Shown: positions 8,453 through 10,765 of the stretch, piece by piece
Layout: each line of letters begins with the position of its first letter
Position numbering within the stretch: the first letter of the stretch is position 1
Assembly (NCBI GenBank): GCA_913055825.1
Contig: CAJXKB010000017.1
Coordinates: 1 to 32,000 of the forward strand
Direction of reading: 5' to 3'
Origin: an uncultured Bacteroidota bacterium
Lineage (GTDB): Bacteria; Bacteroidota; Bacteroidia; Bacteroidales; F082
DNA: 32,000 nt
Made by a program: the position numbers and the translations under genes
The notes under the pieces: generated by a model
What the model was told of the DNA's origin: nothing
Database searches by the model: none
Seen by the model: only the letters and a program-made list of their open reading frames with translations

Positions 8453-10765
8453 ATGAAGTTACAAATTTCAACAGAAGAAATAAAGCAATTAGTAAAAACT
8501 CATTACGGAATATCCGTTTCAGTAAAGGCACTTCATGGATATGATGAATTAAATTATCTGTTAGCTGACGACCATGGCAATAAGTTCATTTTAAAAATAG
8601 CAAACGAAGATCACGGATATCATTTTCTGGATGCACAGGTGAAAATCTTAAAATATCTTTCCACAAGCAATGTCGCAAATTATTTTCAAAAGTATTTGTT
8701 AAATACGGAAAGAAGGGAATTGACATCGCTTAAAATTAATAATCAAACATATTACCTACGGATTCTTACTTTTTTAGAAGGGAAATTTTGGGTGGAAAGC
8801 AAAAAAAGAACCGATGACCTGTATTTCGATTTGGGAAATTTTATGGGCAAGATGGACAAAGTACTGAGCAACTTTTCACATCCTGCCATGCACCGGCATT
8901 ATACCTGGGATATCAGCACCGCTGCTGATGCCAATGCGAAATTAAAGTATATCAAAGACCATGAGCGCAGGCGGATTGCCGGTTACTTCCTTTTACAATT
9001 TGAAACGGAAGTTCTGCCGGTACTTTCTTCCCTTCGCCATGCCTATGTCCACAACGATGCCAACGATTACAATGTTTTGGTTCATAAAAACAAAGTGACA
9101 GGCCTGATTGATTTTGGCGACATGGTTTATACTGCTTTGGTGAATAATCTCGCTGTTACTTGTACTTATGCCATGCTCAATACCGACAATCCGCTTCATG
9201 CCGCTTCGTTGGTGATAAAAGGCTATCACGAAAAGTATCCGTTAAAAAACCAGGAGCTGGACTTATTGTATTATTTAATTGCGGCAAGGTTATGTATCAG
9301 CGTAACACAATCGGCTTATCAGGCTGCAACTGTTACGAATAACGAACACCATTTTATCACAGAAATTCCAGCATGGGACTTATTATATAAACTCATTAAA
9401 ATCAATCCTATAAAAGCACAGGACAAATTCAGAAAAGCATGTGGTTTTGAAGGTTTGATTCAAACAGGTAATTATTCCAAATTATTAGAGGAACGGAAAA
9501 AAAATATCGGCGGTAACCTAAGCATTAACTATAAAGAGCCTTTGAAAATTGTAAAAGGGACGCTGCAATATTTATATGATGATAAAGGAAATACTTTTGT
9601 TGATTGCGTGAATAACCCATCCCATGTGGGGCATTGTCATCCGGTAGTGGTAAAACGGATGCAAAAGCAAATCGCCACCCTAAACACAAATACACGATAC
9701 CTGAGTGATCTGATCATTGAATATGCAAAAAAACTCAAAGAGACGTTGCCCCCCTCACTAAACACCTGTTACTTTGTAAACTCAGGTAGCGAAGCCAATG
9801 ATCTGGCTATACGTATAAGCCGGCATTTCACAGGACAAAAGGATATTATTGTACTTGATCATGCTTATCATGGCACTACCACCATCGATATGGAGATGAG
9901 CCCTTATAAATTTGATGGACCGGGAGGTTTTGGAAAACAACCGTGGATACACAAAGCGGAAAGCCCCGATTTATATCGCGGGCGCTATACCTATGGTGAT
10001 AAAAATGCAGGTATTAAATATGCTAAAGACGTGCAACGCATTATTGATGAATTGACAAAATCAAATAAAGCCCCGGCAGCTTTTATTTGCGAAACATTGT
10101 TGGGTGTAGGCGGCCAACTTCCGCTGCCCCAGAATTATCTAAAGCACGTTTATAATCATGTAAGGGCTGCGGGCGGTGTGTGTATTGCCGACGAGGTGCA
10201 GGTAGGATTTGGCAGGATTGGTGAAAAATTCTGGGGATTTCAATTACAAGATGTAGTACCCGACATCGTTGTCATGGGAAAACCTATTGGCAACGGGCAT
10301 CCGTTGGCTGCCATAGTGGTAACGGATAAAATTGCCGACGCTTTCAATAACGGCATGGAGTATTTTAATACTTACGGTGGCAACCCTGTTTCAATGACCG
10401 CCGGCCTGGCAGTACTTGATGTAATCCACAACGAAGAAATGCAACAACATGCCCTTGAAACAGGAAATTATCTGATGGATGGTTTAAAGCAGTTGATGAA
10501 AAAATATCCCATTATTGGTGATGTGAGAGGACACGGATTATTTATAGGTGTGGAATTGGTAAAAGACAGAAAGACGTTGGAACCCGCTGTCCCTGAAATT
10601 GATATAATTGTAGAAAAAATGAAGGCAAGAGGTTATTTGCTAAGCACCGACGGACCGCTTCACAATGTGCTGAAAATTAAACCTCCCCTTCCTTTTAATA
10701 AACGAAATGCTGATGAGATGTTGCAATATTTAGATGAAATATTAGGTGAATTATTCAATATTTAA
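8453..10765 (+). CDS. Bifunctional APH-fold kinase :: class-III PLP-dependent enzyme (hydroxylysine kinase / phospho-lyase-like fusion)
   Basis: aa 1 to about 330 show a protein-kinase-like APH fold (Brenner motif [12 protein letters not shown], metal site IDFGDM). aa about 345-770 show a class-III aminotransferase fold ([27 protein letters not shown]-lysine motif [12 protein letters not shown] with the Lys codon at 10280-10282). No signal peptide. The gene starts 13 nt after the GH42 stop. Confidence 0.85.

What the first reader, a model, noticed from the sequence alone, without database searches (positions are those of the whole stretch)
8453..10765. 770-aa single-polypeptide fusion of an APH-fold kinase and an AGXT2L-like class-III PLP enzyme
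Seen: one uninterrupted ORF. The N-terminal part has intact kinase catalytic motifs ([12 protein letters not shown]). The C-terminal part has an intact PLP site (GKPIGNGHP, Lys about 610), and the GNGHP context resembles the phospho-lyase subgroup rather than typical GABA/ornithine transaminases. Fusing a kinase to a PLP enzyme implies substrate channelling of a phosphorylated amino alcohol: phosphorylate a hydroxyl, then eliminate phosphate and ammonia. The substrate could be 5-hydroxylysine, ethanolamine or another amino alcohol. The neighbouring glycosidases argue for a glycoside-derived amino alcohol.
Basis: partly seen in the sequence, partly recalled or inferred. Interest (0 to 1): 0.6.

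Follow-up and report, generated by a model that had tools for sequence, protein, structure and literature searches.

The report
Hydroxylysine-type kinase/phospho-lyase fusion enzyme
This is a real, intact gene for a two-part enzyme (a small-molecule kinase joined to a phosphate-and-ammonia-eliminating PLP enzyme) of a widespread, already catalogued bacterial family; its conserved neighbours suggest it burns the hydroxylysine freed from the glucose-galactose-hydroxylysine unit of collagen, a bacterial pathway not yet shown by experiment.

Summary
ORF 8453-10765 (+) is uninterrupted and encodes 770 aa, with an N-terminal APH-fold kinase and a C-terminal class-III PLP domain. All quoted motifs are in place, including Lys610.

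It is not a frameshift artefact. An independent assembly carries the same ORF, and thousands of fused homologues exist.

The C-terminal half is 52% identical to human ethanolamine-phosphate phospho-lyase (TM 0.96). Its only close solved relatives are the two known phospho-lyases, not transaminases.

The fusion is not new as a kind. NCBIfam models cover it, one source already names a 72% homologue "hydroxylysine kinase/5-phosphonooxy-L-lysine phospho-lyase", and such bacterial fusions guided the 2012 discovery of HYKK/PHYKPL/ETNPPL (my recollection).

Context adds the substrate call:
- Within its clade the gene closes a SusC/SusD-GH63-beta-galactosidase operon. The beta-galactosidase is GH42 here and GH2 elsewhere.
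- The same partners recur in Planctomycetota and Gammaproteobacteria.
- Two relatives fuse or abut a 2-oxoadipate-pathway enzyme (HGLS).

This favours 5-hydroxylysine from collagen-type Glc-Gal-Hyl (about 0.6). Nothing is biochemically tested.

The same scan has already reported this locus type in at least 40 other genomes.

Here the locus edges are decayed: SusC is broken, SusD carries a deletion, and a GH97 stump remains.

The parts
8453..10765 (+). Complete gene for the 770-aa kinase/phospho-lyase fusion
8453..9472 (+). N-terminal APH-fold small-molecule kinase domain (residues 1-340). Brenner motif HNDANDYN is at nt 9050-9073, DFGD at nt 9110-9121, and the beta3 Lys is K48.
   Evidence: Pfam APH 69.6 bits. 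Motif positions. Invariant K48/D202/N207/D220/D223. Model pLDDT 95.7. Nearest folds are homoserine kinase II 2ppq (TM 0.71/0.77), amicoumacin kinase and, at rank 16, aminopropanol kinase 6ef6.
9473..10765 (+). C-terminal class-III PLP domain of the phospho-lyase subgroup (residues 341-770). GKPIGNGHP is at nt 10277-10303, with the Schiff-base Lys610 at nt 10280-10282.
6304..8439 (+). GH42 beta-galactosidase with a lipoprotein-type signal (MKKSGLLLIVLIFAVFLVAGC). Its stop lies 13 nt before the fusion's start codon. Proposed Gal-beta-O-Hyl hydrolase.
   Evidence: Pfam Glyco_hydro_42 E 2e-113. N-terminus. The same position is conserved in Flavobacterium loci and L013.
4199..6268 (+). GH63 / YgjK-like alpha-glucosidase with an N-terminal signal-like hydrophobic stretch. 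Proposed Glc-alpha1,2-Gal hydrolase.
   Evidence: Pfam MGH1-like_GH, YgjK_N and GH63. NCBIfam PRK10137 alpha-glucosidase, 375.6 bits, below its 625-bit cut-off. YgjK structures, including 3w7w, match at E ~4e-82. 3w7w is the Glc-alpha-1,2-Gal complex (PMC13671375).
2763..4061 (+). SusD-like gene, shortened by an internal deletion of about 370 bp relative to the closest locus, L013
   Evidence: Pfam SusD-like_3 and SusD_RagB. In the blastn, window 1552-3961 pairs with L013 1-2403 and window 3954-4062 with L013 2774-2882.
740..2749 (+). SusC-like TonB-dependent transporter remnant. Only the C-terminal half (1229-2749) is an ORF that matches the family. There is an in-frame stop at 1208-1210 and further stops upstream of 740.
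   Evidence: TIGR04056 covers profile positions 482-981 only. Frame-2 stop map. The piece 740-1207 gave no Pfam hit.
10771..10932 (+). 53-codon stump of a GH97 gene, the gene that follows the fusion in L013
   Evidence: tblastn of the L013 GH97 protein: residues 590-650, 34% identity, E 8e-8. GH97 follows the fusion gene in L013.
16988..18145 (+). Galactokinase, possibly associated (Leloir entry for the released galactose)
   Evidence: Pfam GalKase_gal_bdg and GHMP kinases. GalK lies in the L013 cluster, and GalK plus GalT lie next to the GH2-fusion pair in Pseudoalteromonas L079.

Best explanation
The gene encodes a cytoplasmic bifunctional enzyme. The N-terminal APH-fold domain phosphorylates the hydroxyl of an amino alcohol with a nucleoside triphosphate. 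The C-terminal PLP domain binds the neighbouring amine as an aldimine on Lys610 and eliminates phosphate, then ammonia, leaving an aldehyde.

The most likely substrate is 5-hydroxy-L-lysine, giving 5-phosphohydroxylysine and then 2-aminoadipate 6-semialdehyde + NH3 + Pi. This is the HYKK + PHYKPL chemistry of animals in one chain.

In this lineage the gene is the last member of an operon-like SusC/SusD-GH63-GH42 locus. The proposed flow is as follows:
1. Collagen-type Glc-alpha1,2-Gal-beta-O-hydroxylysine, free or on short peptides, is taken up.
2. The GH63 removes glucose and the lipoprotein GH42 removes galactose.
3. Free hydroxylysine enters the cytoplasm through an unidentified carrier.
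4. The fusion converts it to aminoadipate semialdehyde.
5. A piperideine-6-carboxylate/aminoadipate-semialdehyde dehydrogenase encoded elsewhere in the genome oxidises that product to 2-aminoadipate.

Shown here: domain identities, catalytic residues, fold, family size and conserved gene neighbourhood. Inferred: every catalytic activity, the substrate, the glycosidase specificities, the transport step and any channelling between the two sites.
For: Domains and motifs.

Lyase subgroup: ETNPPL 6tor E 1e-143 and 52% identity with TMt 0.96 and rmsd 1.3; A1RDF1 5g4i E 7e-90; next best 1e-52.

Kinase fold: nearest is the amino-acid-hydroxyl kinase homoserine kinase II, with aminopropanol kinase also among the hits.

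Synteny:
- A 13-row clade with 100% support holds the window. Ten of its rows have glycosidases next to the gene.
- Flavobacterium hydatis, Flavobacterium sp. PS2, L013, L022 and the window have SusC-SusD-GH63-GH42-fusion.
- Chitinophaga hostae, two Pedobacter species and a Chitinophagaceae MAG have SusC-SusD-GH2(LacZ type)-GH63-fusion. The beta-galactosidase has therefore been replaced by a non-orthologous one while the GH63 is kept.
- Outside the clade and phylum, Phycisphaera has an SSF transporter, a single 1650-aa GH63+GH2 protein and then the fusion. Pseudoalteromonas has GalK, GalT, GH2 and then the fusion.

Link to the lysine carbon skeleton:
- Sphingobacteriales 50-39 has one 1078-aa ORF with APH + Aminotran_3 + HGLS (PF07063, 2-oxoadipate dioxygenase/decarboxylase).
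- Pedobacter steynii has HGLS as the next gene downstream.
- In a 401-genome phylum sample, HGLS lies within 10 kb of the kinase-lyase in 2 genomes. A GH63 orthologue lies within 5 kb in 4 genomes of 4 genera.

Other support:
- The window's own genome encodes a P6C dehydrogenase (NF050084, 726 bits on a partial translation; cut-off 730).
- A source names a 72%-identical homologue hydroxylysine kinase/5-phosphonooxy-L-lysine phospho-lyase.
Against: - No biochemical data exist for any bacterial member that I could find.
- The best solved match is the phosphoethanolamine-specific enzyme. No PHYKPL or HYKK sequence could be brought in, so hydroxylysine versus ethanolamine is not decided by sequence.
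- Most family members have no glycosidase neighbour. This includes a 30-row marine Bacteroidota clade, all but one of the rows from the other non-proteobacterial phyla (Phycisphaera is the exception), and 30 of the 34 hits in the phylum sample.
- GH42 enzymes usually act on galacto-oligosaccharides, and GH63/YgjK specificities are broad.
- In this genome SusC is disrupted and SusD is shortened, no HGLS gene was found, and no hydroxylysine carrier is identified.
Confidence: 0.6

Rival explanations
1. Ethanolamine kinase plus phosphoethanolamine phospho-lyase. The enzyme would turn ethanolamine (for example from phospholipid head groups) into acetaldehyde, ammonia and phosphate, and the glycosidase neighbours would be unrelated.
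For: The closest solved structure is human ETNPPL (52% identity), and the second, A1RDF1, is the Arthrobacter aurescens phospholyase. By my recollection of Cuetos et al. 2016, A1RDF1 is a phosphoethanolamine lyase. Many family members have no glycosidase neighbours.
Against: No PHYKPL structure exists for comparison, so the ranking is biased. The recurrent GH63 plus beta-galactosidase partners in three phyla, with GH2/GH42 replacement, are hard to explain. Fusion or adjacency to HGLS, a 2-oxoadipate enzyme, fits a C6 amino-acid skeleton, not acetaldehyde. No acetaldehyde dehydrogenase or eut genes were seen in the loci whose neighbours were annotated.
Confidence: 0.12
2. Kinase/phospho-lyase for another amino alcohol. 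Candidates are 1-aminopropan-2-ol (as in the actinobacterial aminoacetone/aminopropanol route) or an unidentified aglycone of an alpha-Glc-beta-Gal glycoside other than hydroxylysine.
For: The kinase fold search lists aminopropanol kinase 6ef6 (rank 16). The chemistry fits any vicinal amino alcohol. The substrate pocket was not analysed.
Against: No sequence-level match to 6ef6 (E>0.01). The links to HGLS and to a P6C dehydrogenase point to the lysine skeleton. As far as I know, Glc-alpha1,2-Gal-beta-O- linked to an amino alcohol is known only for hydroxylysine.
Confidence: 0.13
3. A conventional class-III aminotransferase joined to an unrelated, for example antibiotic-type, phosphotransferase. 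There would be no phosphate elimination and no pathway coupling.
For: Public annotation of most homologues reads only 'aminotransferase class III-fold PLP-dependent enzyme'. The APH family contains many resistance kinases.
Against: There is a gap of about 90 and 40 orders of magnitude in E-value between the two lyases and the best non-lyase. The fusion occurs in both orders and with inserts (APH-AT, AT-APH, APH-M23-AT, APH-AT-HGLS), which argues for functional coupling of the two domains.
Confidence: 0.03
4. The enzyme family acts as proposed, but in this genome the locus is a decaying, horizontally acquired relic that no longer supports growth on the glycoside.
For: SusC has in-frame stops, SusD has an internal deletion, the GH27 and hypothetical genes of L013 are missing and GH97 is a stump. 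Only 1 full and 1 partial copy were found in 23 same-genus genomes, while the closest full-length named homologues are Flavobacterium, in another order.
Against: GH63, GH42 and the fusion are all intact. The first two are identical in a second assembly, and the fusion's catalytic residues are kept. Another SusCD pair could serve for uptake.
Confidence: 0.1

Closest known systems
Vertebrate hydroxylysine catabolism: hydroxylysine kinase HYKK/AGPHD1 plus 5-phosphohydroxy-L-lysine phospho-lyase PHYKPL/AGXT2L2 (Veiga-da-Cunha et al., J Biol Chem 2012; the reference is listed in PMC8154272 and PMC5714238; the paper itself is not held)
   Same: The same two folds in the same order of reactions: an APH-type kinase, then a class-III PLP phosphate/ammonia elimination. 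By my recollection of the abstract, bacterial bi- and tri-functional fusions of exactly this type (40-50% identical to AGXT2L1/2) were the clue that led to those human enzymes.
   Different: One polypeptide instead of two genes. Bacterial, and embedded in a SusC/SusD-glycosidase locus. No activity has been measured. Orthology to HYKK and PHYKPL, as opposed to ETNPPL, could not be tested here.
Human ethanolamine-phosphate phospho-lyase ETNPPL/AGXT2L1 (PDB 6tor)
   Same: 52% identity over about 408 columns, TMt 0.96, rmsd 1.3 A. Shared motifs include GKPxGNGHP, NTNxRxL and SPYKF.
   Different: ETNPPL is a stand-alone enzyme specific for phosphoethanolamine. The gene context here argues for a C6 amino-acid substrate.
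Arthrobacter aurescens phospholyase A1RDF1 (PDB 5g4i/5g4j; Cuetos et al. 2016, cited in PMC6750192)
   Same: A bacterial class-III 'transaminase homologue' that is a phospho-lyase. E 7e-90, 37-38% identity, TMt 0.94.
   Different: Stand-alone and more distant. It lacks the SPYKF segment that the window protein shares with ETNPPL (alignment).
NCBIfam PRK06148 / PRK06149 (about 1000-aa 'hypothetical protein' / 'aminotransferase' models) = trifunctional APH-M23-aminotransferase proteins
   Same: These are the best NCBIfam matches (972 and 652 bits). The same kinase and lyase domains appear in the same order (P0241: APH 33-266, Peptidase_M23 447-545, Aminotran_3 614-1015).
   Different: The window protein lacks the M23 insert of about 250 residues and scores below both curated cut-offs (1128 and 973), so it is a sister architecture and not a member by NCBI's own thresholds.
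Animal PGGHG (GH65 protein-glucosylgalactosylhydroxylysine glucosidase) and E. coli YgjK (GH63)
   Same: PGGHG removes the alpha1,2-glucose from Glc-Gal-Hyl (PMC8626586). [quoted passage not shown]
   Different: A different glycoside hydrolase family from PGGHG. The physiological substrate of YgjK is unknown, and the GH63 here is untested.
Aminopropanol kinase (PDB 6ef6, 'microcompartment-associated aminopropanol kinase') with its partner phospho-lyase in actinobacteria (the partner enzyme is from my own knowledge)
   Same: The same two-step logic, APH-fold kinase then PLP phospho-lyase, for a vicinal amino alcohol. It appears as a structural hit at rank 16.
   Different: No detectable sequence similarity, separate genes, a microcompartment context and a different substrate.

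Membership tests
APH / eukaryotic-like small-molecule kinase fold (Pfam PF01636) | Profile match above the curated cut-off | tested here: met
   69.6 bits against a cut-off of 23.2, residues 28-245
APH / eukaryotic-like small-molecule kinase fold (Pfam PF01636) | Catalytic HxDxxxxN loop, DFG-type metal-binding Asp and beta3 Lys | tested here: met
   H200-N-D202-...-N207, D220-F-G-D223 and K48. K48, D202, N207, D220 and D223 are invariant in 56 homologues; H200 is nearly invariant in the 36-sequence alignment A1
APH / eukaryotic-like small-molecule kinase fold (Pfam PF01636) | Bilobal kinase fold | tested here: met
   Model pLDDT 95.7. 2ppq has TM 0.71/0.77, and AmiN, NahK, APH(9) and 6ef6 are all at probability 1.00
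Hydroxylysine kinase HYKK/AGPHD1 (EC 2.7.1.81) | Orthology to animal HYKK (reciprocal best match or phylogeny) | not tested
   No HYKK sequence could be obtained. The N-domain search returned only unnamed or generic bacterial proteins in its top 120. The only pointer is a source's name on a 72% homologue.
Hydroxylysine kinase HYKK/AGPHD1 (EC 2.7.1.81) | NTP-dependent phosphorylation of 5-hydroxy-L-lysine | not testable with these tools
   Needs an enzyme assay
Class-III (fold-type I) PLP enzymes (Pfam PF00202) | Profile match, Schiff-base Lys and pyridine-N Asp | tested here: met
   242 bits against a cut-off of 30.5. K610 and D580 are invariant
PLP phospho-lyase subgroup (ETNPPL / PHYKPL / A1RDF1) | Closest characterised relatives are the lyases, clearly separated from transaminases, racemases and decarboxylases | tested here: met
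   E 1e-143 and 7e-90 against 1e-52 for the next. TMt 0.96/0.94 against <=0.91
PLP phospho-lyase subgroup (ETNPPL / PHYKPL / A1RDF1) | Elimination of phosphate and ammonia instead of transamination | not testable with these tools
   Needs an enzyme assay
PLP phospho-lyase subgroup (ETNPPL / PHYKPL / A1RDF1) | Assignment to the PHYKPL (hydroxylysine) branch rather than the ETNPPL (ethanolamine) branch | not tested
The substrate call rests on gene context only.
NCBIfam PRK06148 / PRK06149 | Whole-protein score above the curated cut-off | tested here: not met
   971.8 < 1128 and 652.3 < 973. The M23 insert of those models is absent.
Bacteroidota polysaccharide-utilisation locus (PUL) | Adjacent intact SusC/SusD pair co-oriented with the enzymes | tested here: inconclusive
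   The pair is present and co-oriented, but SusC has in-frame stops and lacks its N-terminal half, and SusD carries a deletion. Intact pairs are found in relatives L014, L026-L030.

The most novel reading that the evidence does not exclude
The fusion is the terminal enzyme of a bacterial pathway, not yet described in the literature I could search, that harvests the collagen-specific glyco-amino acid Glc-alpha1,2-Gal-beta-O-hydroxylysine. The pathway would comprise SusCD uptake, a GH63 alpha-glucosidase, an interchangeable GH42 or GH2 beta-galactosidase, then kinase/phospho-lyase conversion of hydroxylysine into the aminoadipate branch of lysine catabolism. The module would have been assembled repeatedly in Bacteroidota, Planctomycetota and Gammaproteobacteria.
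Probability: 0.6. Interest if true: 0.65.

Novelty: new member of a known kind. Interest (0 to 1): 0.5.

Why it matters
The fused enzyme alone is ordinary. It is one more member of a large family whose chemistry is predictable from the animal enzymes.

The value lies in context. The conserved pairing with an alpha-glucosidase and a beta-galactosidase, and the occasional fusion to a 2-oxoadipate enzyme, give a concrete, cheaply testable hypothesis. The hypothesis covers how environmental bacteria use glycosylated hydroxylysine, a collagen-specific compound. It also gives candidate physiological substrates for three poorly understood enzyme groups: bacterial GH63/YgjK-like enzymes, exported GH42 enzymes, and the thousands of 'class-III aminotransferase' fusions.

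If confirmed, it would also supply a one-chain hydroxylysine-to-aminoadipate-semialdehyde catalyst and enzymes for analysing collagen glycosylation.

Tried and rejected
- **The 2012 paper.** I tried to read Veiga-da-Cunha et al. 2012 (PMC3293546), but it is not held. What I say about it is from memory plus citations in other papers.
- **Named HYKK and PHYKPL sequences.**
  - A homologue search with the kinase domain alone returned only bacterial, mostly partial, generically named proteins.
  - I ran no further search on the lyase domain, because partial fusions would again fill the list.
  - Hence there is no orthology test against HYKK and no ETNPPL-versus-PHYKPL placement.
- **Sequence search of the kinase domain against the PDB.** It gave only amicoumacin kinase at E 1.6e-3. 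Fold search was needed.
- **Promoter/terminator scan of 3900-11100.** Counts equal the shuffled expectation and the scan does not cover Bacteroidota promoters, so it is uninformative.
- **Model coordinates.** They are not exposed to scripts, so I could not measure the distance or look for a tunnel between the two active sites. Channelling stays untested.
- **dN/dS against the 99.6% relative.** Uninformative for GH63 and GH42 (zero differences), and based on only 30 differences in the fusion.
- **Rejected: frameshift artefact**.
- **Rejected: conventional aminotransferase**.
- **Rejected: chance adjacency of the glycosidases.** The partners recur in three phyla, with non-orthologous beta-galactosidases and a GH63-GH2 fusion.
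- **Literature searches.** No bacterial Glc-Gal-Hyl locus or bacterial hydroxylysine kinase turned up. This shows only that nothing is in the held library.
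Full report
**1. Observation**

The window holds one uninterrupted ORF at 8453-10765 (+) of 770 codons. Pfam places an APH phosphotransferase domain on residues 28-245 and a class-III aminotransferase-fold domain on residues 363-764.

- HNDANDYN at 200-207;
- DFGD at 220-223;
- GKPIGNGHP at 609-617, with Lys610.

In an alignment of 56 fused homologues spanning 36-74% identity, the following are invariant:
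- the kinase residues K48, D202, N207, D220 and D223;
- the PLP residues D580, Q583, K610 and R692.

The gene is not an assembly artefact:
- A contig from an independent metagenome assembly, 99.6% identical over 17 kb, has the same 770-aa ORF.
- The homologue search scored its capped 8000 candidates and all matched. The 120 listed are all ~754-796 aa with both domains.
- A library of 50%-identity representatives holds 3036 relatives at E<1e-30.

AlphaFold2 models the whole chain with pLDDT 94.2 and pTM 0.92.

**2. What the two halves are**

The C-terminal half matches two solved phospho-lyases far better than anything else:
- human ethanolamine-phosphate phospho-lyase (6tor, E 1e-143);
- the Arthrobacter phospholyase A1RDF1 (5g4i, E 7e-90);
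- the next hit, dialkylglycine decarboxylase, at only 1e-52.

Fold comparison gives the same order: 6tor has TMt 0.96, rmsd 1.3 A and 52% identity, and 5g4i has TMt 0.94. The GKPxGNGHP context around the Schiff-base lysine is shared with both lyases (alignment).

The N-terminal half has no close solved relative by sequence; the best is amicoumacin kinase at E 1.6e-3. Modelled alone (pLDDT 95.7), it is a standard APH-type small-molecule kinase. Its nearest folds are Agrobacterium homoserine kinase type II (2ppq), amicoumacin kinase and N-acetylhexosamine kinase, with the microcompartment aminopropanol kinase 6ef6 at rank 16.

**3. The fusion is a known, large family**

- NCBIfam's best models are PRK06148 and PRK06149, built on proteins of about 1000 aa. 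The window protein scores 972 and 652 bits, below both curated cut-offs.
- Those longer proteins are APH-M23 peptidase-aminotransferase trifunctionals (P0241). About half of the 150 best representatives are of that length.
- The reverse order, aminotransferase-APH, also exists (P0329).
- PGAP calls the Flavobacterium homologues 'aminotransferase class III-fold PLP-dependent enzyme'. One submitter calls a 72% homologue 'hydroxylysine kinase /5-phosphonooxy-L-lysine phospho-lyase'.
- From my own memory of Veiga-da-Cunha et al. 2012 (J Biol Chem 287:7246; not held; cited), bacterial bi- and tri-functional fusions of exactly this kind were the clue used to identify human HYKK, PHYKPL and ETNPPL.

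The architecture itself is therefore not new.

**4. Context and substrate**

In the window the gene follows, on the same strand:
- a SusC-like remnant;
- a SusD-like gene;
- a GH63/YgjK-like alpha-glucosidase (4199-6268);
- a GH42 beta-galactosidase with a lipoprotein signal (6304-8439), whose stop is 13 nt before the fusion's ATG.

I fetched 80 loci from named genomes plus several metagenome contigs, and scored their flanks. A maximum-likelihood tree puts the window in a fully supported 13-row clade of Flavobacterium, Chitinophagaceae and Sphingobacteriaceae. In ten of those rows, glycosidases lie next to the gene.

| Lineage | Gene order |
|---|---|
| Flavobacterium loci, contig L013 and the window | SusC-SusD-GH63-GH42-fusion |
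| Chitinophaga hostae, Pedobacter steynii, P. africanus, a Chitinophagaceae MAG | SusC-SusD-GH2 (LacZ type)-GH63-fusion |
| Phycisphaera MAG (Planctomycetota) | SSF transporter, one 1650-aa GH63+GH2 protein, then the fusion |
| Pseudoalteromonas MAG (Gammaproteobacteria) | galactokinase, Gal-1-P uridylyltransferase, GH2, then the fusion |

An alpha-glucosidase is thus kept in most of these loci, alongside a beta-galactosidase that is swapped between unrelated families. This is what one expects if the substrate is an alpha-Glc-beta-Gal glycoside.

The GH63's closest solved relative is E. coli YgjK (E about 4e-82). [quoted passage not shown] That disaccharide is the one attached to collagen hydroxylysine (PMC8626586).

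**5. Link to the lysine skeleton**

- In Sphingobacteriales bacterium 50-39 the gene is a single 1078-aa ORF carrying APH, Aminotran_3 and HGLS. HGLS is PF07063, 2-oxoadipate dioxygenase/decarboxylase.
- In Pedobacter steynii, an HGLS gene follows immediately.
- 2-Oxoadipate lies two steps downstream of 2-aminoadipate semialdehyde, the product expected from 5-phosphohydroxylysine. It has no relation to acetaldehyde, the product expected from phosphoethanolamine.
- The window's own genome encodes an L-piperideine-6-carboxylate (aminoadipate semialdehyde) dehydrogenase on contig C31 (NF050084, 726 bits on a partial translation). It has no HGLS.

In an even sample of 401 Bacteroidota genomes:
- 34 have a strong kinase-lyase match.
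- A GH63 orthologue lies within 5 kb in four of them, from four genera.
- HGLS lies within 10 kb in two.

These co-localisations are far more than chance in 3-5 Mb genomes. They also show that most family members, including a 30-row marine Bacteroidota clade, stand without glycosidases. Those members may take free hydroxylysine or another substrate.

**6. Mechanism proposed**

1. Collagen-type Glc-Gal-Hyl is taken up. (Inferred.)
2. The GH63 and then the GH42 deglycosylate it in the periplasm or at the surface. Both have signal-type N-termini. (Inferred.)
3. Free hydroxylysine enters the cytoplasm, where the fusion has no signal peptide. (Inferred.)
4. The kinase domain phosphorylates O5. The PLP domain forms the aldimine with the C6 amine and eliminates phosphate. 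Hydrolysis then gives ammonia and aminoadipate semialdehyde. (Inferred from the animal enzymes.)
5. A P6C dehydrogenase continues the pathway. The gene is present. (Role inferred.)

I put about 0.9 on 'amino-alcohol kinase plus phospho-lyase' and about 0.6 on hydroxylysine from Glc-Gal-Hyl as the substrate. Channelling between the domains is plausible, given the confident fixed inter-domain geometry.

**7. State of this particular locus**

Compared with the closest contig L013 (76-81% nucleotide identity):
- The window's SusD lacks about 370 bp.
- The hypothetical gene and GH27 gene between SusD and GH63 are missing.
- The 53-codon ORF at 10771-10932 is the C-terminal stump of the GH97 gene that follows the fusion in L013.
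- The SusC frame has stops at 737 and 1208 and lacks its N-terminal half.

Only one of 23 same-genus genomes has a full-length homologue, at 45% identity, and one has a partial copy. The nearest named full-length homologues are Flavobacterium, which the kinship labels place in a different order. This looks like a horizontally acquired locus whose edges are eroding while the three enzyme genes remain intact.

**8. Novelty and the rest of the scan**

Full-text searches found no paper linking hydroxylysine kinase, GH63 or a PUL to bacterial use of Glc-Gal-Hyl. This covers only the held library.

The scan's own notes show that the same locus type has already been reported by first readers and follow-up agents in at least 40 other genomes, with the same reading. 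For this genome it was noted as a separate finding. Those notes are not independent evidence; I reached the Chitinophaga and Pedobacter layouts from my own loci.

My verdict is that the finding is real and correctly interpreted. The fusion is a new member of a known kind. Its interest comes from the still untested pathway it points to.

Noticed in passing
window 13285-13446: An element of about 160 bp with 19-bp terminal inverted repeats is a MITE-like insertion polymorphism. It is absent from the 99.6%-identical contig L102 (empty site ATTATTTAG|TTAAAACC, TTAG duplicated). It has near-identical full copies on own-genome contigs C4:14594-14762 and C36:20330-20498, plus partial copies on several others.
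   Followed up: yes
window 8564-8679 and 8867-8871: 28 of the 30 nucleotide differences between the fusion gene and its 99.6% relative L102 fall in the kinase domain, 20 of them in two short N-lobe patches (residues 38-76, 139-140). The 4.2 kb of GH63 and GH42 are identical. A second 98% protein (P0003) shares the L102 allele. The positions are variable ones in the family. This could be a recombination patch or strain mixing in assembly.
   Followed up: partly
window 10771-10932: The 53-codon ORF is the C-terminal stump of a GH97 gene. It matches residues 590-650 of the GH97 that follows the fusion in L013 (34% identity, E 8e-8).
   Followed up: yes
window 740-4061: SusC-like gene with in-frame stops (737, 1208) and no N-terminal half. 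SusD-like gene with an internal deletion of about 370 bp. L013's hypothetical gene and GH27 gene are absent between SusD and GH63.
   Followed up: partly
L025:9986-13222: Sphingobacteriales bacterium 50-39 has a single 1078-aa ORF carrying APH + Aminotran_3 + HGLS (2-oxoadipate dioxygenase/decarboxylase). In Pedobacter steynii (L027:12299-13198) HGLS is the next gene.
   Followed up: yes
L051:5037-9989: A Phycisphaera MAG encodes one 1650-aa protein that joins a GH63/YgjK-like domain to a LacZ-type GH2 beta-galactosidase. It lies directly upstream of its kinase-lyase gene and downstream of an SSF transporter.
   Followed up: partly
P0329; P0241: The kinase and lyase domains are also fused in the reverse order (Aminotran_3 25-420, APH 458-677), and with an M23 peptidase domain inserted between them (APH-M23-AT, about 1000 aa).
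   Followed up: partly
L050:12370-14784 (same ORF cluster in L041, L084); L095:7417-9831 (cluster in 7 Maribacter-type loci): In glycosidase-free loci the fusion sits next to an S9 DPP-IV/prolyl-oligopeptidase-type peptidase (3 loci from 3 phyla). In Maribacter it sits directly after a fused E1 alpha/beta 2-oxoacid dehydrogenase. These may be links to proline-rich peptide and oxoacid catabolism.
   Followed up: no
own genome versus relatives: Patchy distribution. Of 23 same-genus genomes, only G018 (45% identity) has a full-length homologue and G002 a partial one. The closest full-length named homologues (72-75%) are Flavobacterium, labelled as another order. This suggests horizontal acquisition of the locus.
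   Followed up: partly
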